IMG/VR virus record: IMGVR_UViG_3300035211_000082
Coordinates: 1 to 57,151 of that record
Source of the DNA: a virus
Strand: one strand, 5' to 3'
DNA: 57,151 bases
The position numbers were made by a program, and so were the translations under genes. The notes under the pieces were generated by a model, which had not been told where the DNA came from, searched no databases, and saw nothing but the letters and a program-made list of their open reading frames with translations. Below are positions 3,914 to 50,518 of this stretch, in pieces (the first letter of the stretch is position 1; each line of letters starts with the position of its first letter).

Positions 3914-3939
3914 TTTTGATCCCGGCAAAGGAAAGAAAT
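3914..3939 (+). repeat. Left inverted repeat of the 890-bp non-coding module; contains CCGGCAAA motif
   Basis: ttttgatcccggcaaaggaaagaaat; reverse complement of 4778..4803 is ttttgatccccggcaaaagaaaagat (about 22/26 identical, 1 indel). Confidence 0.85.
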
Positions 3940-3960
3940 ACTCACTTAGTTTGTTAGATC

Positions 3961-3989
3961 TGTTAATTTAGATTTAGAAGTGTTATAAT
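3961..3989 (+). promoter_or_regulatory. candidate extended -10 promoter (TGtTATAAT)
   Basis: aagtgttataat; same RTGTTATAAT box recurs at 17947-57, 27261-70, 5033-42 (plus strand) and 15310-20 (minus strand). Confidence 0.35.
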
Positions 3990-4075
3990 TGTTGTGTGCA
4001 TTTTGATTATAGAACTTAGAATTGAAAAAAGTGGTTAAGAAATTAATCGCTTTTTTCGTGCTTGATTTCTTAGCT

Positions 4076-4099
4076 ATTCTTTCCTTTTGCTGGCTCAAA
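4076..4099 (-). repeat. Degenerate third copy of the module-end repeat
   Basis: attctttccttttgctggctcaaa; rc tttgagCCAGCAAAAGGAAAGAAT. Confidence 0.5.
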
Positions 4100-4302
4100 T
4101 ATTCACAACTATTCGATTGATTTTAAAACATTTGACTTGTTTCAAAATATTAAGATAAAATAAATTTATAAATATTTTTGATAAATATTTAAAATAATAA
4201 AATAACTAAGTATTTTATATTTTTTGTATATTTTGTAAAGAACTTTTGTATTTGTTAACAAGCTGGCAAATACATTTTTTTTGTGCTTATTTTGTCTTTG
4301 CA

Positions 4303-4330
4303 TTGACTTATTTTGAATATTTATTATAAT
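4303..4330 (+). promoter_or_regulatory. sigma70-type promoter TTGACT-N16-TATAAT
   Basis: cattgacttattttgaatatttattataat read directly; no ORF with an RBS follows for 700 nt. Confidence 0.6.
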
Positions 4331-4337
4331 TAACATG

Positions 4338-4645
4338 TTAACACAAAGTCTACTTTAGGCATTTTTCGACTTTACAAAAACGTACAATGTCAGGGCTTGT
4401 TGGAGTCAAGCAATCGAGAAACAGTATATACTTTATCTTGAGAGTTGGCGTAATTAGTGGCGTACGTCAGTCGACAAACTCAAAATCGTCACTGCCGTGT
4501 CTGGTAAACTAATGGTAAAGAAAAGTTATTGACGAATAACTAGTATCTTGGGTTCGATTCCCAAGTCAGGCTTTTATAAAATTCACTGAGGTTTACTATA
4601 TAAGATTAATTTAATGATTGGCGCTTGAAAGAGTGCTTTTTCTTT
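4338..4645 (+). ncRNA. candidate ncRNA (about 240-310 nt) ending in a hairpin series that includes a tRNA-like T-arm
   Basis: Starts after the 4303 promoter; locally higher GC. Hairpins: gcttg/caagc (4395-4411), agttatt-gacg-aataact (4524-4541), TTGGG-TTCGATT-CCCAA (4548-4564, canonical T-loop), then gtcaggctttt. Weak terminator gcgct..agtgc+T-run at 4621-4645. No cloverleaf found. Confidence 0.4.
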
Positions 4646-4687
4646 GCATAAATGATAAAATAGTATTTGTTTATAATTGTTTTTCAT
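4583..4687 (-). CDS. possible 34-aa ORF antisense to the 3' part of the candidate ncRNA
   Basis: agaggactaaaaaa ATG; MKNNYKQILFYHLCKEKALFQAPIIKLILYSKPQ; no similarity recognisable. Confidence 0.2.
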   Translation of the reverse strand: MKNNYKQILFYHLCKEKALFQAPIIKLILYSKPQ

Positions 4688-4777
4688 TTTTTTAGTCCTC
4701 TATAAGTTGATTTGTTGATTTGCTAGAAAGATATGAGTATTTGAAAGTTTTCGATACTTGTATCTTTTAGTTTGATT

Positions 4778-4803
4778 ATCTTTTCTTTTGCCGGGGATCA
4801 AAA
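4778..4803 (-). repeat. Right inverted repeat of the 890-bp non-coding module; contains TTTGCCGG motif
   Basis: atcttttcttttgccggggatcaaaa. Confidence 0.85.
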
Positions 4804-5013
4804 TATACGAATTACTATCTAAAAAACAAATCAACATCTCTTTTCAAAAAATAATATATATTTATCGTTTTTTTACTACTTTTTAAAGCCATTTACACAC
4901 TTAAAATAATTAAAGCTAATTTTATACGGCTAAAATTTAAATTGAGTATTTGGGCAATTAACTAACAAATAAAGGCATGTAAAACTTTTGTTATATATTT
5001 AACACTAAAGTAA

Positions 5014-8100: not shown

Positions 8101-8122
8101 TTAAGTAATTGTAAAACTTGAT

Positions 8123-8138
8123 CCGGCAAACAAAGAAC
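8123..8138 (+). repeat. CCGGCAAA motif copy
   Basis: ccggcaaacaaagaac, 23 nt after the stop of 7546..8100. Confidence 0.8.
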
Positions 8139-8187: not shown

Positions 8188-9060
8188 TTACTTTGATTTT
8201 AATATTCCAATTCTTACAGCCTCATTTAATGGCAATATATCAGCTAATAAAGCTATATTTTCATGCATCTTATCACGCTTTAATAATGTATCGGCATCAG
8301 CCTTTTGCCAATCGTCCCAATATTCTATACCGCAGGCAGATTTTATATCTTTTGATACAGATTTTATATAATTCTGAAACTCTCTTTTGTTTGGACACTT
8401 ATCCCATAATGCTCCAGACATTTTTTTGAAAGAATCTCCACTTTTATTTCTATATTTTATTAAATAATCATATAGCCATTCATATGTTTCTATCTTTAAT
8501 TTAGGGCTAATTGCCAAGGCGATATCAATAAATAAATATGGATGCACCCAAGTATGTGCACTTCTGCCGCGACCTTTAATTATTGGATTACCATATTTAA
8601 ATGTTAATTCGTCAATGAATTCTTTCGTAGATTTTTGAGTTAACCATAATGATAAATTAAAATCTGATAATTCATTATTTCTACGCCATTTATTTCCAGC
8701 CTTAACTAAATCTGTAGCACTAAAAAATTCGCTTTTAGATTTAGTAATTGAATTTATTTTTACATTAAATATCATATATTTACTATTTAATGGAATATCA
8801 TTTAAAACATTATTTATTGTTTTTTTTATTTTATTAATGTCTATTTTAAACCATTCACCTTTTGTATTATATTCCATCAATCTGTTATGTATTATTGATT
8901 CGTTTTCAAAACAATTATTTATTGAATCTACACAATAAACAAGACTTAAGCTTTGTCCGATAGCAGCCTCTATCGATCGTTTTCTTTTTTCTATATTGTT
9001 TGTGGCTCCTATTTTGTATAATCCATTTTTTTCGTTAAATAAAACATATATTTTATTCAT
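8188..9060 (-). CDS. T5orf172 (GIY-YIG-like) domain fused to KilA-N DNA-binding domain
   Basis: N-term IYVLFNEKNGLYKIGATNNIEKRKRSIE...GEWF; C-half SAHTWVHPYLFIDIALAISPKLKIETYEWLYD is KilA-N-like. Confidence 0.6.
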   Translation of the reverse strand: MNKIYVLFNEKNGLYKIGATNNIEKRKRSIEAAIGQSLSLVYCVDSINNCFENESIIHNRLMEYNTKGEWFKIDINKIKKTINNVLNDIPLNSKYMIFNVKINSITKSKSEFFSATDLVKAGNKWRRNNELSDFNLSLWLTQKSTKEFIDELTFKYGNPIIKGRGRSAHTWVHPYLFIDIALAISPKLKIETYEWLYDYLIKYRNKSGDSFKKMSGALWDKCPNKREFQNYIKSVSKDIKSACGIEYWDDWQKADADTLLKRDKMHENIALLADILPLNEAVRIGILKSK

Positions 9061-10448: not shown

Positions 10449-10814
10449 TTATTTTATATATTTGCCTTGAACATTTCTTTTTTGCTTGTTCAAAGTTCTT
10501 TTTCTTAACCACATTAAAGATTCTTCTAATTTTGTTATAGCTACAGCATTTTCTCTACATCTAAAATCAGAATTCTGAAAATTTTCAAGACGATTAATGC
10601 AGATCGCAATTAAATCTTCCATAAAAATACCATTTAGTCCAGCTTCTTTAACTCCGCCTTGTTGAAAATGTACTTTGCAAAGCATATTATTATTATCATT
10701 TTGCAAAATCTCATAATCATGAGGTGCATTAAATTGAATACTGTCATTGTCTATGACTATATGAGTATTATCAGTTGTTATTAAATCATGTTCTAATTTT
10801 GAATATTTATCCAT
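10449..10814 (-). CDS. conserved phage protein of unknown function
   Basis: 121 aa; ggaggattaaa ATG; C-terminal FQNSDFRCRENAVAITKLEESLMWL, a motif I recall from many phage hypotheticals. Confidence 0.55.
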   Translation of the reverse strand: MDKYSKLEHDLITTDNTHIVIDNDSIQFNAPHDYEILQNDNNNMLCKVHFQQGGVKEAGLNGIFMEDLIAICINRLENFQNSDFRCRENAVAITKLEESLMWLRKRTLNKQKRNVQGKYIK

Positions 10815-12596: not shown

Positions 12597-12818
12597 TTAG
12601 AAATCATTTTTAATACTTAGCTCCGGCAAAAGAGAACAAGCTATTGTAGTAGTAGGTTCATTGCAATATGGCTGAACTGGAGTAATTGGATATACTGGTG
12701 TAACAGCAACATCATCAACTCCAACACATTTCTTAAAAATTTGATCTAATTCCATATCGTTACATTGTTTTATGTATTGTATTATATATTCTTTCTTTAA
12801 TTCATTTAATTTATTCAT
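12597..12818 (-). CDS. hypothetical protein (73 aa)
   Basis: ORF; contains a motif copy at 12623. Confidence 0.45.
   Translation of the reverse strand: MNKLNELKKEYIIQYIKQCNDMELDQIFKKCVGVDDVAVTPVYPITPVQPYCNEPTTTIACSLLPELSIKNDF
12623..12638 (+). repeat. CCGGCAAA motif copy (inside CDS)
   Basis: ccggcaaaagagaaca. Confidence 0.8.
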
Positions 12819-14425: not shown

Positions 14426-14453
14426 TTCTTTCTTTTGCCGGCAAAGGAGTTCA
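14426..14453. repeat. Dyad motif TTTGCCGGCAAA
   Basis: ttctttcttttgccggcaaaggagttca; 32 nt after the stop of 14477..15211. Confidence 0.85.
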
Positions 14454-15737: not shown

Positions 15738-16325
15738 TTACAAATGCGTTAACATAAAATTTCTTAAGAAATATTTAATATTTCCTAATATAAATTGTCC
15801 TGACAGCCATTTGTTTTCTATAAAATTGAACTGTAAATTATATTCTGTCATCCTAGAATACATCATAGTCCTAATACATTGCTTTGTATCTTTTATTTTT
15901 TTGTTGACATCTTTGTATCTATCTGGATTAGGTTTTATGCGATAATTGCCTACAAGTAAATCATTAAGGCTGCCATCCTCAATAAATATACTAAATTGTA
16001 GCAATTCTTGACCTCTTAGTATTTCGCGCTCAAACCTTCCGGCAAAAAGAGAACTAATCAATTCTTGTATACCGTTTTTTCTTTCAAGTGCGAAATAATC
16101 AGAGAAATTGGTTTTATCATAAATAAAACTATAATCTCCAGTATTCAAATGCGTTATTTCATAGTTGACACATATCTTTTTAAAATAATCTAATATATGA
16201 CTATTTTCTTTTTCTTGCTGATCAACTAATACAATGACATCATTAACAAAACTTTCTAATATTTTGTTAATCCTTCTTTTGTGTTTATCGATCTTTTTTT
16301 GCTCATCTTTATCTTTAGAGATCAT
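15738..16325 (-). CDS. ERCC4/XPF-type nuclease (junction resolvase-like)
   Basis: HLNTGDYSF ... FALERKNGIQELISSLFAGRF = GDY...ERK...S..GR pattern; ATG at 16325 overlaps the upstream stop. Confidence 0.55.
   Translation of the reverse strand: MISKDKDEQKKIDKHKRRINKILESFVNDVIVLVDQQEKENSHILDYFKKICVNYEITHLNTGDYSFIYDKTNFSDYFALERKNGIQELISSLFAGRFEREILRGQELLQFSIFIEDGSLNDLLVGNYRIKPNPDRYKDVNKKIKDTKQCIRTMMYSRMTEYNLQFNFIENKWLSGQFILGNIKYFLRNFMLTHL
16039..16054 (+). repeat. CCGGCAAA motif copy (inside CDS)
   Basis: ccggcaaaaagagaac. Confidence 0.8.
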
Positions 16326-16906: not shown

Positions 16907-17885
16907 TAGATTTTTGCTCCTCTTCTATCTCTATAAGTTTTGCATATACTTCATTGACTTGAGCTTCGTTTAATTCATCTATTTCATCTTTATTTGTAAC
17001 TTCTTTAATTATTTTATTTAATTTGTTATCAGTTATTTTTAATTTTTTTTGATAAACTCTTAAAGATTTAACATAATCAGTATTATCTTTCTCTGCTGGA
17101 GTTTCTTGATTATCTTTCCTTTTGCCGGCCTCTCTTTTAGCCGACATCGTATCATCTTTTTTAGTTTTATCATTAATTACAAATTGCTTGAAATCGTTAA
17201 ATGTCTTAATTCCTTCTATAATTCCATCTGATTTGCTCAATCTAGTTTTAACAATATTTATATTTCTATCCTCTGTGATTTCTATAACAACATCAACTAA
17301 GCTTTCTAGTATTTCTAAGGCATCAACTTGAGTACCCACTGGCTGAGTCTTTCCATCACTTCCAGTTCCCCATACAATTTTTGACCTGGCAGTAAATATT
17401 ATATTGACATCTAATGCAATTATCTTGTCAAGTAATCTTCTTGTATTATCCCTTCTAAACGCATACCACTTAGATTTTTGTAATTGGTTTAACTGCATTA
17501 AGTTTTTACCAATTTTCTTCTCATATTGATTAAGCAATATTGATTCAATGTTATCTAATAGATCCGTAGCTGAATCTATTATTAACGTATTAACAATATT
17601 GTTATATACACCATCAGATATTTCTTTTATTATTTCTGTAGTCAATAAAGTTGCATTTGATATATCTTTAACATTTGAATCCTTTTTGCTTTTAGCAGCA
17701 GTCGAATGATCGACTGCTGCCCTATAAAAATCAAACTCATTAGAATACAGTGTAGTAGAATTTTCAAAATCTATTACAAGCGGTTTATCACTGTTCAATG
17801 CCCAACGACTTTTGCCTACGCCAGGCTTTCCCCAGATTAACACCTTTAATTTATAATCTTTTATCTCTGCTTTTTTAGCAATCAT
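16896..17885 (-). CDS. AAA_24/Sak4-like RecA-fold ATPase (recombination)
   Basis: 329 aa; Walker A KVLIWGKPGVGKS near the N-terminus, LIIDSATDL Walker B. Confidence 0.6.
   Translation of the reverse strand: MIAKKAEIKDYKLKVLIWGKPGVGKSRWALNSDKPLVIDFENSTTLYSNEFDFYRAAVDHSTAAKSKKDSNVKDISNATLLTTEIIKEISDGVYNNIVNTLIIDSATDLLDNIESILLNQYEKKIGKNLMQLNQLQKSKWYAFRRDNTRRLLDKIIALDVNIIFTARSKIVWGTGSDGKTQPVGTQVDALEILESLVDVVIEITEDRNINIVKTRLSKSDGIIEGIKTFNDFKQFVINDKTKKDDTMSAKREAGKRKDNQETPAEKDNTDYVKSLRVYQKKLKITDNKLNKIIKEVTNKDEIDELNEAQVNEVYAKLIEIEEEQKSNGK
17113..17128 (-). repeat. CCGGCAAA motif copy (inside CDS)
   Basis: rc ccggcaaaaggaaaga. Confidence 0.8.
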
Positions 17886-17999: not shown

Positions 18000-18182
18000 A
18001 TGGATGAACACAATATAAACGTAAAAATAAGCCAAAAAAGTTATATAAAATTACAAGAGATTTTTTATGATTTGAAACAAATCAATAAAGGCATCAAAAT
18101 TAATGAGGTACTTGAACAGATAATTGAGTTTTCATATTCAAATTTAGATAAGTTAAAAGACTTGCCGGCAAAAGAAAAGTAA
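18000..18182 (+). CDS. hypothetical protein (60 aa)
   Basis: aaaggaattaagtaat ATG; the only plus-strand ORF here; motif copy at its 3' end. Confidence 0.45.
   Translation: MDEHNINVKISQKSYIKLQEIFYDLKQINKGIKINEVLEQIIEFSYSNLDKLKDLPAKEK
18165..18180 (+). repeat. CCGGCAAA motif copy (inside CDS)
   Basis: ccggcaaaagaaaagt. Confidence 0.8.
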
Positions 18183-19599: not shown

Positions 19600-19611
19600 A
19601 ATATCCTCCAA

Positions 19612-22183: not shown

Positions 22184-22199
22184 TCCTTTCGTTTGCCGG
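22184..22199 (-). repeat. CCGGCAAA motif copy
   Basis: rc ccggcaaacgaaagga; between 22175 start and 22218 stop. Confidence 0.8.
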
Positions 22200-22217
22200 C
22201 ATAAGTTTAATCTATGC

Positions 22218-28184: not shown

Positions 28185-28257
28185 AATAATCACCTCTTTA
28201 TATATATTATCATATATTATAATATATTACAATGCTTATATATCCATCTCTCCCCAT

Positions 28258-28273
28258 GCCGGCAAAAGGAAAA
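28258..28273 (+). repeat. CCGGCAAA motif copy
   Basis: ccggcaaaaggaaaag, intergenic. Confidence 0.8.
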
Positions 28274-29783: not shown

Positions 29784-29811
29784 TATTTTCTTTTGCCGGC
29801 AAAGGAATCAT
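29784..29811. repeat. Dyad motif TTTGCCGGCAAA
   Basis: tattttcttttgccggcaaaggaatcat; 20 nt after the tail tube stop. Confidence 0.85.
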
Positions 29812-31654: not shown

Positions 31655-32101
31655 TTACCATTGCTCCGTTTCTAACTTCCAAACCGGCTCAGTATCTTCA
31701 TAATCATTATCAGAATTTCCATGGCTTGTAAAAGAATATAATCCATTTGTGCTATCTTTTTCAGTCGAATTAGGCAATATAAGATCACGAGATATAATTT
31801 GCATTATTCTTTTGTCGGCACTATTTTTCCAACTATAAGCAATTTCTGGCATTTTGCCAGCGGTTTGCATAACTAAAACTTTAGCAACCTCATAAGCTGC
31901 TAGCCTTGTAGATATAAATTTTAATATTTCTACATCATCAACATTGGTTATTGGAGTATTGTAAATTAAAGCAATTCTCCCATTTATTAAAGCATCAGCC
32001 TCTAGTATAAAATCTGCAACATCATTAGTATTAACTTTGCTTGTAGTTGTAAAAGTAGTCCATTTAATTAAACTTTGAACATCGCTTATACTACAATACA
32101 T
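31655..32101 (-). CDS. head-tail connector protein (Mu gp36/DUF1320-like)
   Basis: 148 aa; N-term YCSISDVQSLI...; position. Confidence 0.45.
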   Translation of the reverse strand: MYCSISDVQSLIKWTTFTTTSKVNTNDVADFILEADALINGRIALIYNTPITNVDDVEILKFISTRLAAYEVAKVLVMQTAGKMPEIAYSWKNSADKRIMQIISRDLILPNSTEKDSTNGLYSFTSHGNSDNDYEDTEPVWKLETEQW

Positions 32102-37093: not shown

Positions 37094-37166
37094 AATTTGT
37101 ATTACACTCCTTTATGGAAAAGTCTCGTAATATTTAAAATATTACGGAATTTAGTTAATATTATAT

Positions 37167-37194
37167 ATAGTTCGTTTGCCGGCAAAAGGATTAA
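37167..37194. repeat. Dyad motif TTTGCCGGCAAA
   Basis: atagttcgtttgccggcaaaaggattaa; its purine arm abuts the capsid stop codon. Confidence 0.85.
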
Positions 37195-41680: not shown

Positions 41681-43482
41681 TTTTTAATATTCCTCATGAT
41701 TTTTTTAGTTATTTTTTCTGTATCTCCTAAATCTTTACTAATTAAATACTCATTTAAAAATCTAGTTTTAATTCTTTCTGATAAATTGTTAGCTACTATG
41801 CTAGCCTTCGCTTTTAGTATATCATTGTCTAGCTTTGGCTTGTAATCTGTTTTAATTTCTTTTTGCATTTGCTTAACGCCTCTGTTAAAAGCGTCCTCAA
41901 ATGCATCAATTACAAAGTTTGTCATTGCGCCTTTATATCCGACTTCTATTTTTGCTATTTCGGATAACTTTATATTTTTAGCTTTATTGACTAAATCTTT
42001 TATTTGCTTTTCAACTATTATTCTAGCCGCATTAAAAAACTTAGATTCTATATTGTCAAAATCCTTTTCTATGTTTAGAAAGCTTGCAGGTTCAGACATT
42101 TTTTTAATTTTTTCGTCTTTGTTATTTTCTTGCTTATTTTCACCTATTTCTTTTTCTTTTTCTAGGATTTCTTCATCTTTGTTCTCATCTGTTTTATCTT
42201 GGTTTTTATTATTTTGTATCTCAATCTTATTTTTTTCAAAAGTTTCTGAATCATGATTTTCTCCTTTGCCGGCAAAAGAACTATTATAGCTATTCGACTC
42301 TTTGGATTTCTCTGGTAATTCCATCATGTCCCGTAACCAATCCTCTAAATCTCTGTCAGGAATTATAAGATTTCCATCGACCATATTTTTTAATGTTTCA
42401 AGTATTTTATTATTGCCTAAAGGCTTAAAACAAAGTTTAGGATATAAATCACTATTAAAATTAAACTCAATCAATTGAGGGATAGCTTCAGTATTTATTA
42501 CATTTGCTATATACTTAGCTATTGCACCCAACATCATTAAAAACAATTCAGTTTGGTCTTTAGATAATGCAAAACTACCGGCACTATTTGAACCCAAATT
42601 CATAAATTGAGCTAGAATGCTCCTAGAAATTAACAAGTCTTGATGTTCTATGTATGGTAATACGTCTACCATCGTGCGCTTGCCCTCGAAAAGTTCTAAT
42701 AAAAAACCTTCAGGTAACGTAATCCCGCCATATTGATTGCTCCTAAGATCTGTCACTATTTTTTTTGCTCTTGCATAATCAGCTTCATCATAATTTTGAG
42801 GCAGGGTTATTACTGGAGTCCCTACAAAATTTCTTTCTATTCCAATATTAGTTATCTTATACAAGAAATCTTTTATTGACCAATGCTTATAGGCGGTTCT
42901 TAGCACACTGCGACCTCTATAGTCTCCTTGTTTCATATCATGCGTAAATACAATCAATTTTTGTTTTGGCATTTTAACTCTAGTGTAAGATGGTTGATAT
43001 ATCCATTGTTCTACATCTGTTAAATCGCCAAATTTATTATATAAAAAATCATATAAAGTTGATTGTGGCCTTGGTGCAAACTTTTTCCATTGCAAGAAAT
43101 TGTTTTTAACTTCAAAAACTTTTTCAAATACCGCATGTCCATATGTAAACATCGAACATGACTCTTTTATAAAATCGTCAAAATGATTTTTCATACCCGA
43201 CGGCGGACCCTTAAATAAGTTATCTTCAATAAATTCTTTATTTTTTTTTGCTTGACTTGAATTATCTGCTGATTTCAAATACCAGCTTGTAGACCTTATC
43301 GGCAATTCTAACATTAATAAGGTTGCTTTTACTTGGGCATCTGATCTTTCCATTTTATTGTAAATTTCAATATCGCTAGGCCATTGCAAAGTTGACAGAT
43401 ATTCATCTGTCGGCAATGAATATTGAAATCTAGCTGAATAGCTTCTGCCAGTGCCTCCAAGTTCACCTCTTCTTGTCGCCAT
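41677..43482 (-). CDS. portal protein (Mu gp29/DUF935-like) with acidic/Lys-rich insert
   Basis: 601 aa; position between terminase side and MuF; N-term ...WPSDIEIYNKMERSDAQVKATLLMLELPI. Confidence 0.7.
   Translation of the reverse strand: MATRRGELGGTGRSYSARFQYSLPTDEYLSTLQWPSDIEIYNKMERSDAQVKATLLMLELPIRSTSWYLKSADNSSQAKKNKEFIEDNLFKGPPSGMKNHFDDFIKESCSMFTYGHAVFEKVFEVKNNFLQWKKFAPRPQSTLYDFLYNKFGDLTDVEQWIYQPSYTRVKMPKQKLIVFTHDMKQGDYRGRSVLRTAYKHWSIKDFLYKITNIGIERNFVGTPVITLPQNYDEADYARAKKIVTDLRSNQYGGITLPEGFLLELFEGKRTMVDVLPYIEHQDLLISRSILAQFMNLGSNSAGSFALSKDQTELFLMMLGAIAKYIANVINTEAIPQLIEFNFNSDLYPKLCFKPLGNNKILETLKNMVDGNLIIPDRDLEDWLRDMMELPEKSKESNSYNSSFAGKGENHDSETFEKNKIEIQNNKNQDKTDENKDEEILEKEKEIGENKQENNKDEKIKKMSEPASFLNIEKDFDNIESKFFNAARIIVEKQIKDLVNKAKNIKLSEIAKIEVGYKGAMTNFVIDAFEDAFNRGVKQMQKEIKTDYKPKLDNDILKAKASIVANNLSERIKTRFLNEYLISKDLGDTEKITKKIMRNIKK
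42257..42284. repeat. Dyad motif TTTGCCGGCAAA (inside portal CDS)
   Basis: ttttctcctttgccggcaaaagaactat; encodes ...SSFAGKGEN... Confidence 0.85.
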
Positions 43483-44065: not shown

Positions 44066-44504
44066 TTTTCGATCCTCCACTTGATTTCGGTTCATATCTT
44101 TCTTCTTTGCCGGCATGGGCATTCATATTTTTCTTGCCTTCTTCTGAAACAATCCCAAATTTAGGTTTTTTCCTACTTGTTATCCCTTCTTTTTCTGCCA
44201 GTTCACACATTCTCAAAAATGCTTTAGTTTTCATTTGCTTTAAATAAAACAATGGGAAATTTTCTCCATTCGGCGCACTATAACTCATTGTTTTAATATG
44301 ATTCATTCTTGTATCATATTTAACGCAAGCATCTGCAAGTTTCATAAACTCTGCATTTTCATCTAGCACACTGTCATTATTGCCAATATTGGATTTACTA
44401 GTTTTAATTTTATCCATTTTTTTGTTTAATTTTTCAATTTCTTCTTTCAAAATTTCAATTTCAATCTGATTTTCATTTTCTAATTCATCATTTTTCTTTG
44501 TCAT
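44058..44504 (-). CDS. hypothetical protein (148 aa)
   Basis: N-terminal coiled coil; motif copy near the 3' end. Confidence 0.5.
   Translation of the reverse strand: MTKKNDELENENQIEIEILKEEIEKLNKKMDKIKTSKSNIGNNDSVLDENAEFMKLADACVKYDTRMNHIKTMSYSAPNGENFPLFYLKQMKTKAFLRMCELAEKEGITSRKKPKFGIVSEEGKKNMNAHAGKEERYEPKSSGGSKNV
44098..44113 (-). repeat. CCGGCAAA motif copy (inside CDS)
   Basis: rc ccggcaaagaagaaag. Confidence 0.8.
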
Positions 44505-45477: not shown

Positions 45478-46989
45478 TCACCATACATTACAATCCTTAT
45501 TACTACTAGGCACCAGCTCAACATCCTTCAAACTGCCCCTACCATGTATCATAATCATAGCAACGCAACAAGCGTCTAGAATATTAGGAGACTTACCCCC
45601 AGGCTCAAATTCCAAAAATTCATTTTCAAATAGTTTATGGGTTTTATTTATCCAAAATCTTTTAGTCTCACAATATACACTAAAAGATTCTATCCTAGTA
45701 GCCTTGCTTTGTGTACCGACGTTAACTGGCATAATCGGCGGTAAACTGCCTAATATAAATGCTTGTTGTGCCAATACTCGCTGATACTGAACACTTTCAA
45801 CGCCCATTTTATATGGCTTATACTTTCTATTATATCGGTCAACTAGTTTTAATTGTTCTGGGAATGTTAACCAATCCTCAAATTCTTCTATCAGATATGC
45901 CTTAACTCCATCAAATCCAATAACAGCTAACCCAAACTTATCTTGTCGCTTGCTTTCTGCTGTTGTTTTATCGTCAGCGACCGCGGGATCAATGCCTATA
46001 TATATTTTTAGCCTCGGAGGCATGTTGTCATAATAATTCAACCAATTAGGATCTAGCAATTTTGCTGAAATTGATTTTCTATCATTCTGCATTACTTTGT
46101 TGAACTTAATTGTACCGATAGAGTCTTTTTTTGCCAATACTCTTGACAAGGGCCATTGCTCCGGCCACAAAGTTGTTGTTTGATCTGAGTCGAGAGCCGA
46201 CAAATGCACATAAGCATATTCGTTTTTATCTGAAAGAACACATAATAAATCCTTAGTATGTTGCAATGTCCCTAAAAGAATTTTACGTCCACCATCAATT
46301 ACCCTTGCGTCGATTATTTCAAGCCACCAATCCTCAACTTTTTTTCTAAGTATATCTGTTTGTGAATTAGATAGATCTATAATATCATCAGCGATTACCC
46401 AATCAAGCCTAGCTCCCATTACTGCTCCACCTGTGCCAATTGCGACAATTGTAGGATCTTTTGATTGATATCCCTGATCTCTTTTTATAATTATCTCTTC
46501 TGTTGTCCATTTGCCAGCATCGTCATTTTTGGTTGGCTTATGAGGTATGATATAGTCTCCAAAATCTTCTTTAAATCGTGGATTGTACTCTATATGCCAT
46601 TTTATAAGTCTTAGAAATCCCTTTGCTTGGCGAGAAGTGTTTGATAAGATGCACCCTTGTGTATTTCGATCCCGGCAAAGAAAGAATAGAGGTAATACTA
46701 AACTGAACCAGGTCGACTTTGCATGTTCAACTGGTACATGAATCACCAAATTGTTATTAATCATAGCTTCTTCAAGCATATAATATTGATGATTAGCTGT
46801 ATTACTGTTCCATTTACGAGTATATGGCTTAATATAATATTCGCCAAATAATGCAGGATTTTGCAATACTATTTCTTTTCTAGTTTTTTTATCTAAATTT
46901 TCAAGCTTATTTCTTAATGCTTCTGTAGTTGGCTTTAACAAATATTCACCTGGTAATTTTGAATGTTGTCTAATTTTTTCTTTAATCAT
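45478..46989 (-). CDS. terL: terminase large subunit
   Basis: 503 aa; ATPase half (VPVEHAKST..., WVIADDIID) and nuclease half (YIGIDPAV...); next to the portal side of the head module. Confidence 0.8.
   Translation of the reverse strand: MIKEKIRQHSKLPGEYLLKPTTEALRNKLENLDKKTRKEIVLQNPALFGEYYIKPYTRKWNSNTANHQYYMLEEAMINNNLVIHVPVEHAKSTWFSLVLPLFFLCRDRNTQGCILSNTSRQAKGFLRLIKWHIEYNPRFKEDFGDYIIPHKPTKNDDAGKWTTEEIIIKRDQGYQSKDPTIVAIGTGGAVMGARLDWVIADDIIDLSNSQTDILRKKVEDWWLEIIDARVIDGGRKILLGTLQHTKDLLCVLSDKNEYAYVHLSALDSDQTTTLWPEQWPLSRVLAKKDSIGTIKFNKVMQNDRKSISAKLLDPNWLNYYDNMPPRLKIYIGIDPAVADDKTTAESKRQDKFGLAVIGFDGVKAYLIEEFEDWLTFPEQLKLVDRYNRKYKPYKMGVESVQYQRVLAQQAFILGSLPPIMPVNVGTQSKATRIESFSVYCETKRFWINKTHKLFENEFLEFEPGGKSPNILDACCVAMIMIHGRGSLKDVELVPSSNKDCNVW
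46672..46687 (+). repeat. CCGGCAAA motif copy (inside terL)
   Basis: ccggcaaagaaagaat preceded by gatc; encodes ...LFFLCRDRN... Confidence 0.8.
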
Positions 46990-47572
46990 CTTTTAGCCTT
47001 TTATTCGCCTTTTTTAAAGCATCAATTGTCTTCATAAAATTTTCTTGTGTTAATCCTTGCATATTATTTCCTTTGCCGGGATCACAATTTAAAGACTCAT
47101 CTTTATTTATATCAATAAAATTAATTTCATTTTTATCTATCTTTTTGCTACAAGATACTAACTTGTCAAGTATACTCGTTAAAGTATTAATTGATATTTT
47201 ACCAGACTTAGATGCTTCCACAATTTTATTTAACAACACAGGAATTTCTTCCCATATAATGCTATTGCAAATCAATTGCATTTGTTCAATATTTTTAGAT
47301 AGCTTTGTTTCATTAATGCCATTATTGTTTATATTAAAATTATGATCTTTGATTTTTGCTAATAAACTTTTTTCACTGTAAATTTGCGGTATAAATAATT
47401 TATGCTCTTTCAATATGTCAAAAGTTATATCAAATTTTGCTTTGACTTGAGCATATATTACAAATTCTGATTTACTATTAGTATATAAATCGACATCGTA
47501 ATTTGTTATTTTATTTATGCATAGCTTACATTTAAGCTTATGCTGTAGTAATTTATCGTTATTATTATCCAT
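46982..47572 (-). CDS. possible terminase small subunit (position only)
   Basis: overlaps the terL start; ATG at 47572 (MDNNNDKLL...); the track start is a GTG further upstream. Confidence 0.3.
   Translation of the reverse strand: MDNNNDKLLQHKLKCKLCINKITNYDVDLYTNSKSEFVIYAQVKAKFDITFDILKEHKLFIPQIYSEKSLLAKIKDHNFNINNNGINETKLSKNIEQMQLICNSIIWEEIPVLLNKIVEASKSGKISINTLTSILDKLVSCSKKIDKNEINFIDINKDESLNCDPGKGNNMQGLTQENFMKTIDALKKANKRLKDD
47064..47079 (-). repeat. CCGGCAAA motif copy (inside CDS)
   Basis: rc gatcccggcaaaggaaataa. Confidence 0.8.
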
Positions 47573-47628
47573 AATCTTATTATACAAAAAAAATAACACC
47601 TAGCGATAGGCATTATTTGAATCAATTA

Positions 47629-47757
47629 TCATTTTCTCTGAATACATTCATATCCGCATTCTGGGCACTTGTATTCTGTGCCTCCTGTTATATCATCAGT
47701 GCCAACATTATCCATCGCAACTGATTTTTTCTTTTTCTTGCATTCTGGACAATCCAT
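47629..47757 (-). CDS. zinc-ribbon mini-protein (42 aa; not in ORF track)
   Basis: MDCPECKKKKKSVAMDNVGTDDITGGTEYKCPECGYECIQRK. Confidence 0.45.
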   Translation of the reverse strand: MDCPECKKKKKSVAMDNVGTDDITGGTEYKCPECGYECIQRK

Positions 47758-47922
47758 TTTATCTTTCACCTACCAATAATTTTAAATCAGGACTTAAATC
47801 AATATCGCAATCCTCAGCCTTATTAACTAATACAGCTCCAGCATTATTTAAAACCTCATTTAAGCTAATACTATTACTGTAAAAATTAAGCAAATATTTT
47901 AAATGTTTGCAATAAGTATTTT

Positions 47923-48699
47923 TTATTTCAACAAATTCAACATATCGATTTGATTATTAACTAATATATCTATAATCTTACTCTTGCCCGAAAGCTCAGC
48001 ATAAGTCTTAATTTTTGCCTTAGTTGTCTTAAATATCTCATGATATTCAGTGCCTTTGTCGATCTCCTGCTGTATTATTTTTTGTGTAAGTATTTCAGCA
48101 CTATTAACAATGTCTAATTGATCTTTAGTCATATAATTTCTAGTAGTTCCGGCTTTAGGCTTGAACTCAAAATCGAACAATGACTTGTTTATCATATTGG
48201 TAAATTGAGAATATGCTAATTGCGGCTTCTTTTCGTAGGTTTTAGAACCGTTTTCAATAGCATACTTTAAATAGTTTTCGTACTCTTTTGCTACTTTCTT
48301 TCTTGTTTCTTTACCTTTTTCTCGTGATTCTAGCCATTCTTTGTTTTGTTTGTTAAGCTCTACTTGTAATAAAGCTCTACGCATTCTATAAAATTCTTTA
48401 ACTAAGTATTGTTTAAAATCTAACACTTCTTCGCTATTGTCCATCAAAGAAATTAAAAAACTCGCCTGTACTTCATTCAATAAATAAAATTTAGAAGGTC
48501 GTCCTCGTCGTTCTATTTTCCAATTATTAGTTGATTTTTTTTCTGTTTCAAACGGAAGAATTCCTCTTATTTTTTTTATTCTTTCAAAATGATTTTCGAT
48601 TAATTGAATTACATTTTTATGCTTGTTGTTAACTCCATCAGCAATCATTTTGCTAGTTATTATTAGTTCATTCTTATTTATTTCTATTAAATTTTTCAT
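47923..48699 (-). CDS. Rha-family phage regulatory protein / antirepressor
   Basis: 258 aa; TSKMIADGVNNKHKNVIQLIENH...KFYLLNEVQASFLISLMDNS. Confidence 0.6.
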   Translation of the reverse strand: MKNLIEINKNELIITSKMIADGVNNKHKNVIQLIENHFERIKKIRGILPFETEKKSTNNWKIERRGRPSKFYLLNEVQASFLISLMDNSEEVLDFKQYLVKEFYRMRRALLQVELNKQNKEWLESREKGKETRKKVAKEYENYLKYAIENGSKTYEKKPQLAYSQFTNMINKSLFDFEFKPKAGTTRNYMTKDQLDIVNSAEILTQKIIQQEIDKGTEYHEIFKTTKAKIKTYAELSGKSKIIDILVNNQIDMLNLLK

Positions 48700-49035
48700 T
48701 TATGGTCCCTCGCTTTATTTTTAACGTTTATGTAAATATTATATTATTAATTTACGCTAATGTCAAAAATAAATTAAGGTTTACCACTCATTAACTTGCC
48801 TAGTAACAATAGACAACTATTTTTTTTATAATATATAATCCATAATTTATGGACTATATATTTATTGTCATTTATTACATAACTATGCAAAATATATTTC
48901 GCAATCACAAATTATATTTTAAAATGTTTCTGGTCTTCCTTTTTTTTACCATTATTTGTTTTAGAGTTTTCAAAACCCAAAAAATCAAATCTTTTTTATT
49001 CTTTTAGAAATATTTATATCAAATTGCGAATATAA

Positions 49036-49521
49036 TCACAAATCATATTCGCAAAACAACTGCTTCAAATAAACATATTTTGACTTATCCGGCAAGGAAG
49101 ACAACCTGACAATAATCTTAAAGTAAATATTGTCATCGCCCTCAATCCCTGCATCAATATATCTTCCTGCTTCGCCTTCTAGATATTTAAATGCCTTATC
49201 TATATATCTTTTTCTCTTGAACTTAACAACTTCTTCAATCCTTTTGTCGGCAATTGTCGGTTTCTCAATTTTGCCATCTAATCCATACTCTTTCACCAAA
49301 TCACTAAACGACTTATTGTATTTCTCTCTCATGAAGTCGATTGAGTCTCCGCCATCACAGCAACCATTATAACTGTAATAGCTGTTATTGTCGTTCAGCA
49401 TAAAATGCCATTTATGATTGCAGAAAGGGCAATCTTTTAATAATCGCCCTTTTCTTGTTTTTTTAAAGTCTTTTGTGTTGCAATAATCGGCTATTCTAAT
49501 TTTTGATTTTAGATCAGTCAT
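49036..49521 (-). CDS. CHC2-type zinc-finger protein (primase-finger-like)
   Basis: CPFCNHKWHFML...NGCCDGGDSIDFM resembles the DnaG/P4 primase zinc finger. Confidence 0.4.
   Translation of the reverse strand: MTDLKSKIRIADYCNTKDFKKTRKGRLLKDCPFCNHKWHFMLNDNNSYYSYNGCCDGGDSIDFMREKYNKSFSDLVKEYGLDGKIEKPTIADKRIEEVVKFKRKRYIDKAFKYLEGEAGRYIDAGIEGDDNIYFKIIVRLSSLPDKSKYVYLKQLFCEYDL
49089..49104 (+). repeat. motif variant CCGGCAAG
   Basis: ccggcaaggaagacaa (inside CDS). Confidence 0.5.
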
Positions 49522-49538
49522 TAAATTTACAAACCCCT

Positions 49539-49979
49539 CTACTCACACCGAATATATAACTCATCACACATTTCACAGTATTGCGTAATTATTTTTATTT
49601 TTTTATTTTTTCCATCTTTATCAATGTATAATGTATTGTGATTATTCCAATGCATTATATCTTCACATTTAGGACATTTTCCTAAATCTGTATACTTATA
49701 ACTGCCATATTGTTTACGATCAGATTGATTTACAAATATTCTTTTATGCACTCTCTCAACTAAATCAATCATAATCTCAGTTACCCAGTATTTAGCACAC
49801 ATAAAATCTGACTTATCATCACATGATTTAATTCTAAAATCTTCAGTATCTTCTTCTACTATTTCAAAAGTTTTGTTTCTTTGTTTGTGCATATCTGAGC
49901 TAAAACCAAATCCGTCATAACAATTACCTATTTTTAAACCATTTTTAAACTTAACTTTGTCACCAATTTGAAATTTCAT
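49539..49979 (-). CDS. hypothetical protein with C-terminal Cys cluster (146 aa)
   Basis: ggaggattaaatt ATG; CPKCEDIMHW...YCEMCDELYIRC. Confidence 0.55.
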   Translation of the reverse strand: MKFQIGDKVKFKNGLKIGNCYDGFGFSSDMHKQRNKTFEIVEEDTEDFRIKSCDDKSDFMCAKYWVTEIMIDLVERVHKRIFVNQSDRKQYGSYKYTDLGKCPKCEDIMHWNNHNTLYIDKDGKNKKIKIITQYCEMCDELYIRCE

Positions 49980-49982
49980 AAT

Positions 49983-50465
49983 TTAATCCTCCAATTTGAT
50001 TTTAAAACTTTCTAAATTATTTTTTATTTCGCAGCTTTCTACGATCTCGCCAGTTGTTTTATTTATTACAGATTCGCCTTCTATGACCAGATCTTTTTTA
50101 AAATTAATCCAGTCTACGCTTTTTTTGATTTTTATAAATTCTTCAGGTATTTCTTTTTCAATATAGTCTGTTTTTAAGGCAATTGTTTTAAAAGCTTTCT
50201 TTCTTGTAAGTTTGCATGACGGAGTTTTATAAGTGTATTGTGTTTTCGTTTCTTTATAGTCCTCTTCTGGTATCATGCTAAACAATTTTTGTTTTAAGCT
50301 TTCTTCTGCATTTTCGATATTGCTCTTATATTCTGATATTTTTTCTTGATATTTTGCGATCATGCTTTCACAAGTATTTATAAGCTTTTCATTTTCAAGC
50401 TTAATTTCCTTAAAATCGTTTACAATTAATTCTGCATTAATGTTTTTATCTTGTAAGTTTTTCAT
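49983..50465 (-). CDS. Gp157/Gam-like coiled-coil protein; paralog of 5508..5972
   Basis: see 5508..5972; ggaggattaaaat ATG. Confidence 0.45.
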   Translation of the reverse strand: MKNLQDKNINAELIVNDFKEIKLENEKLINTCESMIAKYQEKISEYKSNIENAEESLKQKLFSMIPEEDYKETKTQYTYKTPSCKLTRKKAFKTIALKTDYIEKEIPEEFIKIKKSVDWINFKKDLVIEGESVINKTTGEIVESCEIKNNLESFKIKLED

Positions 50466-50502
50466 ATTTTAATCCTCCATTTTGTTATTTGTAAAACTTG
50501 TG

Positions 50503-50518
50503 CCGACAAAAGGAAATC
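50503..50518 (+). repeat. motif variant CCGACAAAAGG
   Basis: ccgacaaaaggaaatc; flank aaaggaa(a)tcatataa shared with 29801-29815. Confidence 0.5.

What the first reader, a model, noticed from the sequence alone, without database searches (positions are those of the whole stretch)
3914..50518. Dispersed GC-rich word CCGGCAAA(R)G(R)AA: 20 exact core copies at 16 loci, single or as TTTGCCGGCAAA dyads, inside and outside genes
The 8-mer CCGGCAAA/TTTGCCGG occurs at 3922, 4787, 8123, 12623, 14434-45 (dyad), 16039, 17121, 18165, 22192, 28258, 29792-803 (dyad), 37175-86 (dyad), 42265-76 (dyad), 44106, 46672 and 47072. Near-copies lie at 4076-99 (CCAGCAAAAGG), 49089 (CCGGCAAGG), 50503 (CCGACAAAAGG), 41354 and 16837. 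At the visibly low GC of this genome (roughly 27-30% by eye) I estimate well under one chance hit on both strands. Conservation continues 3' into a purine tract, and four loci are perfect dyads sharing the central GCCGGC. Eight loci are inside ORFs, in different frames and on both strands (terL, portal, ERCC4-like nuclease, Sak4-like ATPase and others), so the nucleotide word is under selection rather than a peptide. Most intergenic copies (five of eight) sit 5-35 nt after stop codons (capsid, tail tube, 22218, 14477, 8100). Two copies form the inverted ends of the non-coding module at 3914-4803. Single copies in genes with inverted pairs just after genes is the pattern of host-wide functional words (Chi sites, DNA-uptake sequences). 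It also fits half-sites for a dimeric DNA-binding, nicking or modifying protein. I cannot tell which applies, and I know of no described motif like this.
Basis: partly seen in the sequence, partly recalled or inferred. Interest (0 to 1): 0.8.

Follow-up and report, generated by a model that had tools for sequence, protein, structure and literature searches.

The report
Lineage-specific dispersed recognition word in phage
A 13-base GC-rich word is scattered about 40 times, singly or as back-to-back pairs, through an AT-rich phage genome; related phages carry different words at some of the same places, so it is probably a recognition site for an unidentified phage-specific DNA-binding factor.

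Summary
CCGGCAAA occurs 20 times at 16 loci, against 0.45 expected. A weight matrix finds about 20 more decayed copies. The unit is an asymmetric 13-mer, (TG)CCGGCAAA[A/G/C]G[A/G][A/G]A. Four loci are two units overlapping back-to-back on CCGG.

Copies are about five times denser outside genes, often 4-31 nt after stop codons. They are still enriched inside genes against synonymous-codon shuffles.

The word acts at the nucleotide level:
- In terL it was made by derived changes, including loss of a Trp invariant in ten relatives.
- In close relatives the core is kept while flanks diverge, and one dyad is inverted.
- Some copies share 23-37 nt of flank, which indicates patch copying.

The key new result is that more distant relatives lack this word. 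Each has its own dispersed word instead (GTTCCCTAGYGGA, TTCCCCTAGTGGAA, TTCCACTAGTGGAA), re-using some of the same sites: terS codon ~174, the portal linker and the capsid-gene 3' end.

It is not a promoter, an intrinsic terminator, a MITE or a polar Chi-type word. No enrichment was found outside this phage family.

Best reading (about 40%): dispersed single and paired binding sites for a lineage-specific dsDNA-binding protein, resembling mycobacteriophage stoperators, P1 C1 operators or DUS dialects. The binding factor and the function remain unidentified.

The parts
3907..3937 (+). Single unit of the long 'GATC-type' form, TTGTAAATTTTGATC-CCGGCAAAGGAAAGAA. It is the left inverted end of the non-coding module.
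   Evidence: (I2)
4081..4095 (-). Decayed copy, AGCCAGCAAAAGGAA (15.6 bits)
   Evidence: (I15)
4773..4810 (-). Single unit, GATC-type, forming the right inverted end of the module. It shares CCGGCAAAAGRAAAGATAATCAA with the copy at 17121.
8109..8135 (+). Single unit, GATC-type, lying 22 nt after the stop of the + strand operon, between convergent genes
12621..12635 (+). Single unit, antisense, in the last codons of a 73-aa ORF
14429..14450 (.). Overlapping dyad lying 31 nt after the stop of the Rha-like gene 14477-15211 and about 70 nt upstream of the next consensus promoter
16037..16051 (+). Single unit, antisense, inside the ERCC4-like nuclease gene
17116..17130 (-). Single unit, sense, in the linker of the Sak4-like gene (E-A-G-K-R-K)
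18163..18177 (+). Single unit in the gap between two hairpins (18197-18273) and the promoter of the Sak4 operon
22187..22201 (-). Single unit, sense, in a 42-nt gap: 18 nt after a stop codon and abutting the next gene's ribosome-binding site
24307..24321 (-). Decayed copy, TGCCCGCAAAAGGAA (19.2 bits)
28257..28271 (+). Single unit in the divergent control region between the RHH/GIY-YIG operon and the + strand genes
29787..29808 (.). Overlapping dyad 19 nt after the stop of the major tail (Big_5) gene. L217 has a decayed copy at the same place.
31806..31820 (-). Decayed copy, TGCCGACAAAAGAAT (18.1 bits), in a coding region
37170..37191 (.). Overlapping dyad 4 nt after the major capsid stop codon. 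It is kept in L214 (inverted), L217 and L219. L218 has its own word here.
42260..42281 (.). Overlapping dyad in the variable linker of the portal gene (S-F-A-G-K-G). It is kept in L214 and L217. L218 and the L125 phage have their own words here.
44101..44115 (-). Single unit, sense, at the junction of the 148-aa ORF and the DUF5662 gene. L217 has a decayed copy.
46657..46684 (+). Single unit, GATC-type, antisense in terL at codon 104, created by derived substitutions
47067..47094 (-). Single unit, GATC-type, sense, in the terS-like gene at codon 174/205. It shares about 37 nt with the copy at 3922. The core is kept in L120.
49238..49252 (-). Decayed copy, TGCCGACAAAAGGAT (17.3 bits)
50501..50515 (+). 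Decayed copy, TGCCGACAAAAGGAA (19.2 bits), in the gap upstream of the Gam-like gene
52677..52691 (-). Decayed copy, TGCCAGCAAACGAAA (19.5 bits), in the helicase gene

Best explanation
The word is a sequence-specific recognition site on double-stranded DNA for a lineage-specific factor, most likely a protein encoded by this phage family. One protein subunit reads one asymmetric 13-bp unit, CCGGCAAARGRAA. Two units overlapping on CCGG make a bivalent site. The sites are spread over the whole genome at one per 1.5-3 kb, preferentially in the short gaps at gene and operon ends and in tolerant protein linkers.

Shown: the word is statistically real. It is maintained at the nucleotide level. It is kept at fixed positions in close relatives. 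In more distant relatives different words occupy some of the same positions. Some copies were spread by copying short patches.

Inferred: a protein binds it, and occupancy acts as a distributed operator or roadblock network at transcription-unit boundaries, as with mycobacteriophage stoperators or P1 C1 operators. A genome-wide 'self' mark for packaging or recombination is a less likely version of the same idea.
For: 1. Enrichment is extreme: 20 copies against 0.45 expected, 41 weight-matrix hits against about 2.6, 8 coding copies against a mean of 1.2 in synonymous-codon shuffles, and 12 non-coding copies against 0.02.

2. The conserved block is short and asymmetric, with no conserved flanks and no -10 element at a fixed distance.

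3. Single and overlapping inverted forms coexist.

4. Eleven of 16 loci are intergenic or at gene junctions, lying between stop codons or hairpins and the next promoter or ribosome-binding site.

5. Close relatives keep the core while intergenic flanks diverge. Either arm alone can persist (L217, L219).

6. The terL site arose by TGG->TTC at a Trp invariant in 10 relatives, plus AGA->CGG, AGA->CGA and ATK->CTT, all moving toward the consensus.

7. Relatives with capsid or terL proteins at 70% identity or less have their own words: 15 CCCTAGYGGA in 21 kb against 0 expected, 32 in 40.8 kb, 11 CCCCTAGTGG-like against 0.23, and 4 CCACTAGTGG against 0. These sit at terS codon ~174, portal codon ~400 and the capsid-gene 3' end, like the window's copies. 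Site and reader co-evolving in this way is the pattern reported for stoperators and their repressors (PMC6550527).

8. Both kinds of word were found enriched only in members of this phage family.

9. A same-GC Clostridium phage-plasmid has no such word.
Against: - No binding protein was identified. The window has an Xre-type HTH (50715-50924), RHH proteins, five Rha paralogues and two terS-like proteins, but none could be linked to the word.
- The units show no preferred orientation relative to transcription: about 4 sense and 5 antisense in the window, and about 18:14 in the L125 phage. Stoperators are co-oriented with transcription.
- The sites do not overlap the best promoter-like sequences. 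They lie 70-220 nt upstream of them.
- A regulatory site has no obvious reason to be built inside terL at the cost of a conserved Trp.
- Shared flanks of 23-37 nt and the inverted dyad in L214 point to copying processes that need no binding protein.
- A temperate lifestyle is not shown, and no integrase was found.
Confidence: 0.4

Rival explanations
1. Self-propagating micro-palindrome. The word and its short flanks spread and are homogenised by short-patch gene conversion or template switching. This might be triggered by a phage endonuclease such as GIY-YIG, T5orf172, HNH or ERCC4-like cutting or nicking at the CCGG/CTAG core. The word persists because of this drive, not because it helps the phage.
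For: - Pairs of copies share long flanks: 3922 and 47072 share about 37 nt, and 4787 and 17121 share 23 nt, including copies inside genes.
- The 22-bp dyad after the capsid gene is inverted between the window and L214.
- The terL site looks like a converted patch.
- Coding copies sit in variable linkers, as expected for tolerated insertions.
- Many decayed copies exist.
- The genome holds several free-standing nuclease-type genes.
Against: - The core is strictly conserved at orthologous sites while flanks drift. That needs continuing homogenisation or selection.
- There are no target-site duplications and no element body.
- Different words at the same positions in different lineages are hard to produce by random insertion.
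- No sharp recombination boundary lies at the terS site.
- No nuclease could be tied to the word.
Confidence: 0.2
2. Host-imposed word. The phage mirrors a word that its bacterial host uses genome-wide, such as an uptake-sequence dialect, a recombination hotspot, a highly iterated palindrome, or a Noc/ParB-type site. Related phages on other hosts carry those hosts' words.
For: - The overall pattern matches DUS dialects: single copies in both orientations in genes, inverted and even overlapping dyads, preference for intergenic DNA after genes, and lineage 'dialects' (PMC3630211).
- The dyad core TTTGCCGGCAAA differs from the B. subtilis Noc-binding core TTTCCCGGGAAA at one base pair per half-site (PMC7383237).
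- The L125-type word contains AGCGG. I recall from my own knowledge that this is the B. subtilis Chi sequence.
Against: - No unrelated viral contig with the 14- or 16-mers shows enrichment.
- No cultured phage carries it.
- The 13 metagenome contigs with the 19-mer are chance hits. This is a weak negative, because the phage itself was not recovered there.
- 80 Bacillota genome loci (1.2 Mb) show none, apart from one cluster of gene paralogues.
- A C. sporogenes phage-plasmid has none.
- There is no orientation polarity.
- The host looks Gram-positive (LPXTG protein). No uptake sequences are known in that group (own knowledge).
- The C/T polymorphism in CCCTAG[C/T]GGA breaks AGCGG.
Confidence: 0.15
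3. Packaging recognition. The words are small-terminase (TerS) binding sites, that is pac-like elements. The pair at 47072/46672 brackets the terS-terL junction, and further copies help to mark or engage phage DNA.
For: - A copy lies in the terS-like gene at codon ~174 in the window, L120, L218, L124, L125 and L126, whatever the word.
- The window has an inverted pair 400 bp apart around the terS/terL junction. The second member was created by substitution.
- The terS-like protein is the fastest-diverging one: 59% identity against 92% for terL in L120.
Against: - To my knowledge, known pac phages use one pac region. About 40 dispersed sites in both orientations are unexplained.
- L121 has no copy in terS.
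- The terS position is also simply a flexible linker.
- The protein 46982-47599 has no family match and is assigned as terS by position only.
Confidence: 0.1
4. RNA-level element. The dyads are hairpins in mRNA that act as terminators, stabilisers or processing sites after highly expressed genes.
For: - Three dyads follow stop codons of the capsid, tail tube and Rha-like genes.
- In L218 a conventional 10-bp GC hairpin occupies the tail-tube 3' position.
- In L121 the word sits inside a longer stem after the capsid gene.
Against: - On the mRNA strand the dyads fold weakly: -5.4, -4.0 and -0.7 kcal/mol, all with z > -1. The better G-U version lies on the antisense strand at two of three sites.
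- No U-tract follows.
- A separate covarying hairpin already follows the capsid dyad.
- Single units cannot fold.
- Units occur equally in sense and antisense and inside genes.
- The sequence, not the pairing, is what is conserved.
Confidence: 0.05

Closest known systems
Stoperators of Cluster A mycobacteriophages (L5, Bxb1), bound by a monomeric immunity repressor
   Same: Asymmetric 13-bp unit; 20-30 or more sites spread through a genome of about 50 kb; mostly in short gaps between genes and not tied to promoters; each lineage has its own consensus, at syntenic sites (PMC6550527, PMC9283540).
   Different: Stoperators predominantly point with transcription. Here orientation is mixed, four loci are overlapping dyads and about a third to a half of copies lie inside genes. 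No repressor gene or temperate lifestyle has been shown. The hosts and phages are unrelated.
C1 repressor operators of phage-plasmid P1
   Same: Asymmetric operator (17 bp) with 22 copies dispersed over the genome (PMC8546580). From my own knowledge, some P1 operators are 'bivalent', meaning two overlapping inverted units, like the dyads here. The window's replication protein has relatives on Clostridium phage-plasmids.
   Different: As I recall, P1 operators overlap promoters. Here the words lie 70-220 nt from the best promoter-like sites, and many are in coding DNA.
DNA uptake sequence (DUS) dialects of Neisseriaceae, and USS of Pasteurellaceae
   Same: Words of 10-12 nt at about one per kb; both orientations; inside genes in permitted frames; inverted pairs after genes; overlapping dyads in Simonsiella and Kingella; lineage-specific dialects (PMC3630211).
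   Different: DUS are properties of the genomes of competent Gram-negative bacteria and are read by ComP. Here the words are seen only in one family of phages, of a probable Gram-positive host, and no enrichment was found outside that family.
Noc-binding site (NBS) and parS of the ParB/Noc family
   Same: 16-bp palindromes with T-rich and A-rich arms around a CCGG or CG core. NBS is TATTTCCCGGGAAATA; the dyads are CTTTTGCCGGCAAAGG. NBS sites are also dispersed (PMC7383237).
   Different: Most copies here are single asymmetric units with a purine tail, which a ParB/Noc dimer site does not have. No ParB-like domain appeared in the Pfam hits for the window's genes.
PeSL cassettes of T4-type phages and HIP1 palindromes of cyanobacteria (both recalled from my own knowledge, not checked here)
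   Same: Short repeated sequences dispersed through a genome, and thought to promote shuffling (PeSL) or to be maintained genome-wide with unknown function (HIP1).
   Different: PeSLs are 50-60 nt promoter-plus-hairpin units, strictly intergenic and oriented. HIP1 is a host-wide 8-mer.

Membership tests
Stoperator network (Cluster A mycobacteriophage type) | Asymmetric binding unit of about 13 bp | tested here: met
   The information content is confined to positions -2..+12 and is asymmetric.
Stoperator network (Cluster A mycobacteriophage type) | Twenty to thirty or more sites dispersed over the whole genome, mostly between genes | tested here: met
   There are 20 exact copies and about 20 decayed ones in 57 kb. 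Eleven of 16 loci are intergenic or at gene junctions.
Stoperator network (Cluster A mycobacteriophage type) | [quoted passage not shown] | tested here: not met
   Single units are about 4 sense and 5 antisense. Three of four asymmetric dyads are antisense. The L125 phage has about 18:14.
Stoperator network (Cluster A mycobacteriophage type) | Lineage-specific consensus that co-varies with a cognate repressor | tested here: inconclusive
   Lineage-specific words are shown. No repressor was identified, so co-variation could not be tested.
P1 C1-type dispersed operators | Sites overlap the promoters they control | tested here: not met
   The best promoter-like sites (15257, 17946, 14363, 28356) do not overlap words. 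The nearest words lie 70-220 nt away.
Uptake sequences (DUS/USS) | The word is over-represented throughout the host chromosome | not testable with these tools
Indirect scans found no enrichment outside the phage family.
Uptake sequences (DUS/USS) | Single copies in both orientations plus inverted or overlapping pairs, and dialects between lineages | tested here: met
   compared with PMC3630211
Chi-type recombination hotspot | A short word (5-8 nt) with strong orientation polarity | tested here: not met
   The unit is 13 nt. Orientation is 11 on + and 9 on -, with no switch point along the genome.
Intrinsic (Rho-independent) terminator | A stable GC-rich stem followed by a U-tract on the transcribed strand | tested here: not met
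   Fold energies on the mRNA strand are -0.7 to -5.4 kcal/mol, no better than shuffles. T-rich sequence precedes the stem and A-rich sequence follows it. The terminator scan does not call the dyads.
Sigma-70-type or phage-specific promoter | A second conserved element at fixed spacing, and orientation matching the downstream genes | tested here: not met
   Nothing is conserved beyond +12. TTGCCG-17-TAnnnT occurs at only 3-4 of 9 dyad arms. Orientation is mixed.
MITE or other small transposable element | Terminal inverted repeats enclosing a conserved body, with target-site duplications | tested here: not met
   Flanks are unrelated among most copies. The inverted pair 46672/47072 encloses the conserved terS/terL junction, which is also present in relatives lacking one arm.
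ParB/Noc-type site (parS/NBS) | A 16-bp palindrome bound by a ParB-family dimer encoded nearby or by the host | tested here: inconclusive
   Only 4 of 16 loci are palindromic. The core is one bp per half-site away from NBS (PMC7383237). No ParB domain appears among the window's Pfam hits. Host Noc is untestable.

The most novel reading that the evidence does not exclude
This family of uncultured, Mu-like-head siphophages, probably of Clostridia-like hosts, uses 'genomic dialects'. Each lineage marks its own DNA every 1-3 kb with a private 13-19-bp word. A co-evolving phage factor reads the word to tell self DNA from host or rival-phage DNA during packaging, recombination-dependent replication or exclusion. 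The words are kept uniform by short-patch conversion. That would be a phage counterpart of bacterial uptake-sequence dialects and a new type of phage self-recognition system.
Probability: 0.2. Interest if true: 0.85.

Novelty: new variant of a known kind. Interest (0 to 1): 0.68.

Why it matters
Very few phage groups are known to carry tens of copies of a private recognition word across the whole genome. The known cases are stoperators in Cluster A mycobacteriophages and C1 operators in P1. In those cases the words explain immunity specificity and how it evolves.

Here the same kind of architecture appears in an unrelated, uncultured phage family. It has a clear evolutionary signature: the word is replaced between lineages while site positions are re-used, and it overrides protein conservation in terL.

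The words themselves are also practical markers for sorting metagenomic contigs of this family into lineages.

Tried and rejected
- **Chance or composition:** rejected.
- **Peptide-driven repeat:** rejected. Copies occur in non-coding DNA, in antisense, and beat the synonymous-codon shuffle.
- **Assembly artefact:** rejected. The word is present at orthologous sites in independent assemblies from IMG/VR and three Logan runs.
- **Promoter:** no fixed -10 element and mixed orientation.
- **Terminator or RNA hairpin:** weak folds on the mRNA strand, and a separate covarying hairpin is already present.
- **MITE:** no common body or flanks.
- **TnpB guide or TAM relation:** the IS605 ends and the RAGATH-18 region are unrelated to the word.
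- **Mosaic boundary or recombination breakpoint at the word:** no sharp identity step at 47072. Synteny breaks against L217 are not at words.
- **Host identification through the TnpB gene:** best hits are only 62% identical. One apparent enrichment, in Sporomusa locus L141, came from a cluster of gene paralogues.
- **Rfam and tRNA scans:** nothing overlaps the words.
- **Literature searches for the words:** nothing relevant.
- **Looking for a protein present only in word-bearing relatives:** the loci held are too partial to decide.
- **Alternating orientation of neighbouring units:** 9 of 11 in the window, 10 of 11 in L240, but 9 of 19 in the merged L125 locus. This is suggestive only and was not used in the argument.

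Full report
**1. The observation**

The window is a 57-kb, 29.3% GC phage genome, with genes almost all on the - strand. Dinucleotide shuffles give 0.45. Sixteen of the genome's 30 CCGG belong to the word. Apart from the ribosome-binding site GGAGGATTAA, it is the most over-represented k-mer.

Aligning the copies shows a short asymmetric block, (T)(G)CCGGCAAA[A/G/C]G[A/G][A/G]A, with nothing conserved outside -2..+12. A weight matrix finds 41 hits of at least 10 bits against about 2.6 in shuffles. So there are about 20 further decayed copies (CCAGCAAA, CCGACAAA, CCCGCAAA).

Four loci are two units overlapping back-to-back on CCGG. Three of these share the 19-mer TTCTTTTGCCGGCAAAGGA. Five copies belong to a longer form, TTGTAAATTTTGATC-CCGGCAAAGGAAAGAA, and include two convergent pairs: 3922/4787 and 46672/47072.

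**2. Where the copies sit**

In genes of at least 90 aa there are 8 copies, against a mean of 1.2 and a maximum of 6 in 500 synonymous-codon shuffles. The other 12.8 kb holds 12 copies against 0.02 expected. The density is about five times higher outside genes.

Five intergenic loci lie 4-31 nt after stop codons: the capsid gene, the tail tube gene, the Rha-like gene 14477-15211, the gene ending at 22218 and the gene ending at 8100. Others lie between hairpins and the next consensus promoter, or abut a ribosome-binding site.

Coding copies sit mainly in variable linkers of the portal, Sak4-like and terS-like proteins. The three sense copies in those genes share the frame xCC GGC AAA. Orientation is mixed, 11 on + and 9 on -, and unrelated to transcription.

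**3. What it is not**

- *Promoter:* no second conserved element, and only 3-4 of 9 dyad arms have a -10-like hexamer at 16-17 nt.
- *Intrinsic terminator or RNA hairpin:* on the mRNA strand the dyads fold at -5.4, -4.0 and -0.7 kcal/mol, no better than shuffles. The T-rich arm precedes the stem and the A-rich arm follows it. A separate hairpin with compensatory changes already follows the capsid dyad.
- *MITE:* flanks are unrelated in most copies.
- *IS605 element:* the words are not connected to the IS605/TnpB element or its RAGATH-18 RNA.
- *Known RNA:* no Rfam or tRNA hit overlaps a copy.

**4. Close relatives**

No cultured phage is close. The best terL match is 41% identical, to Bacillus and Weizmannia phages. 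Uncultured relatives were fetched:

| Locus | Relation to the window |
|---|---|
| L120 | terL 92% aa |
| L214 | portal to capsid region, about 80% nt |
| L217 | about 74% nt |
| L219 | about 74% nt |

- *Portal dyad:* a dyad in L214, and one good arm plus a decayed arm in L217.
- *Capsid 3' dyad:* present in L214, L217 and L219 although the surrounding intergenic DNA has diverged. L217 and L219 keep one arm intact. In L214 the whole 22-bp element is in the opposite orientation, with the two arms swapped and 21/22 matches to the reverse complement.
- *Tail-tube dyad:* decayed to TTTGTCGGCAAC in L217.
- *terS copy:* keeps its core in L120, but the terL copy is absent there.

The terL comparison is the clearest evidence of nucleotide-level drive. 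Ten relatives encode P-L-W-[FL]-[MLI]-(C-R/K or I-N)-D-R-N with an invariant Trp. The window has TGG->TTC (W->F), ATK/TTA->CTT, AGA->CGG and AGA->CGA. Every one of these changes moves toward the long form of the word.

Two pairs of copies share far more flank than chance allows. The copies at 3922 and 47072 share about 37 nt, and those at 4787 and 17121 share 23 nt. One member of each pair is inside a gene, so some copies arose by copying a patch rather than by point mutation.

**5. The family-wide pattern (new)**

Relatives whose capsid or terL proteins are 70% identical or less have no CCGGCAAA enrichment. Unbiased k-mer analysis shows that several of them have their own dispersed GC-rich word:

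| Phage / locus | Word | Count vs expectation |
|---|---|---|
| IMGVR 3300000317_000001 (L125) | (CAT)GTTCCCTAG[C/T]GGA(A/T) | 15 in 21 kb vs 0 |
| Same phage, all loci held | same word | 32 in 40.8 kb, both orientations, in and between genes |
| L218, L216 | TTCCCCTAGTGGAA | 11 vs 0.23 |
| L121 | TTCCACTAGTGGAA (perfect palindrome) | 4 vs 0 |
| L123, L124 | CCGCTAGAGG / CCCTAGCGGAA | not tested against shuffles |
| L122, L128, L215 | no such word detected | - |

Some positions are shared across words:
- *terS-like gene:* codon 174/205 in the window, 173/201 in L125 and 178/210 in L218.
- *Portal linker:* codon ~400 in the window, L218 and L125.
- *First 30 nt after the capsid stop codon:* in the window clade, L218 and L121.

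So the feature is old in the family. Its positions are partly retained or re-used, and its sequence is lineage-specific.

**6. Phage-intrinsic or host-imposed?**

- Exact-word scans of IMG/VR with 14- and 16-mers of both word types return only chance single hits. The exception is members of this family, which show homology to the window's structural proteins.
- INPHARED phages show nothing.
- A metagenome scan with the 19-mer dyad gave 13 unrelated, non-enriched contigs. The phage itself was not recovered there, so this negative is weak.
- 80 Bacillota genome loci fetched through the TnpB gene show no enrichment, except one cluster of gene paralogues.
- A circular 40-kb C. sporogenes phage-plasmid of identical GC shares the window's CHC2-primase-like and ERCC4 genes. 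It has no CCGGCAAA and no comparable word.

The host is probably a Gram-positive, Clostridia-like bacterium, on three grounds: an LPXTG protein, a strong Shine-Dalgarno sequence, and relatives of the replication protein on Clostridium plasmids. It was not identified, so a host-wide word cannot be excluded.

**7. Interpretation**

Four properties together fit a site read on double-stranded DNA by a sequence-specific factor that co-evolves with it:
- a short asymmetric unit,
- single and overlapping inverted forms,
- preference for gene junctions,
- lineage-specific sequence at syntenic sites.

The nearest described systems are these:
- *Cluster A mycobacteriophage stoperators:* 13 bp, asymmetric, 20-30 per genome, lineage-specific consensus matched to the repressor (PMC6550527, PMC9283540).
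- *P1 C1 operators:* 22 dispersed asymmetric operators (PMC8546580).
- *DUS dialects:* these match the genomic pattern closely, including overlapping dyads (PMC3630211), but they belong to bacterial chromosomes.

The defining stoperator property of co-orientation with transcription is not met. Overlap with promoters, as in P1, is not met either. I therefore file this as working like a dispersed operator or roadblock network, not as a member of either family.

The patch copying, the inverted dyad and the costly terL site leave real room for a drive-based explanation: a self-propagating micro-palindrome, possibly dependent on a nuclease. They also leave room for a genome-marking role in packaging or recombination. 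The constant copy in terS and the fast-evolving terS-like protein (59% against 92% for terL) hint at packaging. No reader protein could be named.

**8. Verdict**

The 'host-wide word' reading has no support so far but is not excluded. Function and reader remain unknown.

My estimates are:
- about 0.4 for dispersed binding sites of a phage factor,
- 0.2 for a self-propagating palindrome,
- 0.15 for a host-imposed word,
- 0.1 for terminase recognition,
- 0.05 for an RNA element.

Noticed in passing
window 53534-54815 (- strand): An IS200/IS605-type TnpB gene (383 aa; OrfB_IS605, Cas12f1-like_TNB) is followed by a RAGATH-18 RNA match (59 bits). Near-duplicate 23-nt sequences, CTTTTATAAGTTTTGTTTAACGG, lie about 80 nt apart just downstream. 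The element is inserted beside the helicase gene.
   Followed up: partly
window 4300-4590 (+ strand): A consensus-like promoter (TTGACT...TATAAT, about 4306-4333) precedes a roughly 240-nt, GC-richer non-coding segment. The segment ends in a tRNA-like T-arm, CTTGGGTTCGATTCCCAAG, plus a T-run. It has no Rfam or ARAGORN match and may be a new phage ncRNA. It lies between the inverted word copies at 3922 and 4787.
   Followed up: partly
window 2926-3800: This part of a 2.1-kb gene-free region is packed with TGTTAC/GTAACA repeats and three tandem TTTAGGGTAAC(TTT) units (3708-3745). It looks like an origin or operator cluster at the divergence point of the two transcription directions.
   Followed up: no
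window 10871-11113, 14477-15211, 18913-19611, 44628-45329, 47923-48699: Five genes carry the Phage_pRha domain. There are also a GIY-YIG gene (27467-28051, with an upstream RHH gene) and a T5orf172/KilA-N gene (8188-9060). This is an unusually high load of free-standing DNA-binding or nuclease-type genes between modules.
   Followed up: partly
window 736-2760 (- strand): This 674-aa ORF has no Pfam or PDB sequence match. It is about 25% identical to 'CHC2 zinc finger' primase-like proteins on 21-59 kb, non-mobilizable Clostridium and Terrisporobacter plasmids. At least one of these (C. sporogenes CM007813.1) is a complete phage-plasmid. This hints at a Clostridia-like host and perhaps a plasmid-prophage lifestyle.
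   Followed up: partly
window 9329-10426 and 10449-10814 (- strand): The phage encodes a 365-aa protein with an LPXTG cell-wall anchor, next to an Acb2/Tad1-hairpin-like (anti-CBASS/Thoeris sponge) gene.
   Followed up: no
window about 37126-37147; L214, L217, L219 orthologous positions: A hairpin about 30 nt downstream of the capsid dyad keeps its pairing through compensatory changes in four relatives (CGTAATATT.../CAGGAT.../CAGGGCAT...). It is followed by AGACTTTTCC and is probably the real terminator or processing hairpin after the capsid gene.
   Followed up: partly
window 46982-47599 vs L120: The terS-like protein is only 59% identical between the window and L120, whereas the adjacent terL is 92% identical. 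Divergence is greatest around the word copy near the C-terminus.
   Followed up: partly
L217 7822-10098: In this relative, a NUMOD4/HNH_3 homing-endonuclease gene sits between two ORFs. The first ORF aligns with the N-terminal part of the window's single 471-aa gene (35678-37093), which suggests a gene split by an endonuclease insertion.
   Followed up: no
window singles; L240: Neighbouring single units tend to alternate in orientation: 9 of 11 transitions in the window and 10 of 11 in L240, but 9 of 19 in the merged L125 locus. This could mean that units arise as inverted pairs. Statistically it is only suggestive.
   Followed up: partly
L128 1-620: The end of this relative's contig carries tandem 27-nt repeats (CCCATGCTATATAGGGTACTATATACA) and CATAGTTTA/CAAACCATAG iterons. 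These may mark a genome end or an origin. They are not a dispersed word.
   Followed up: no
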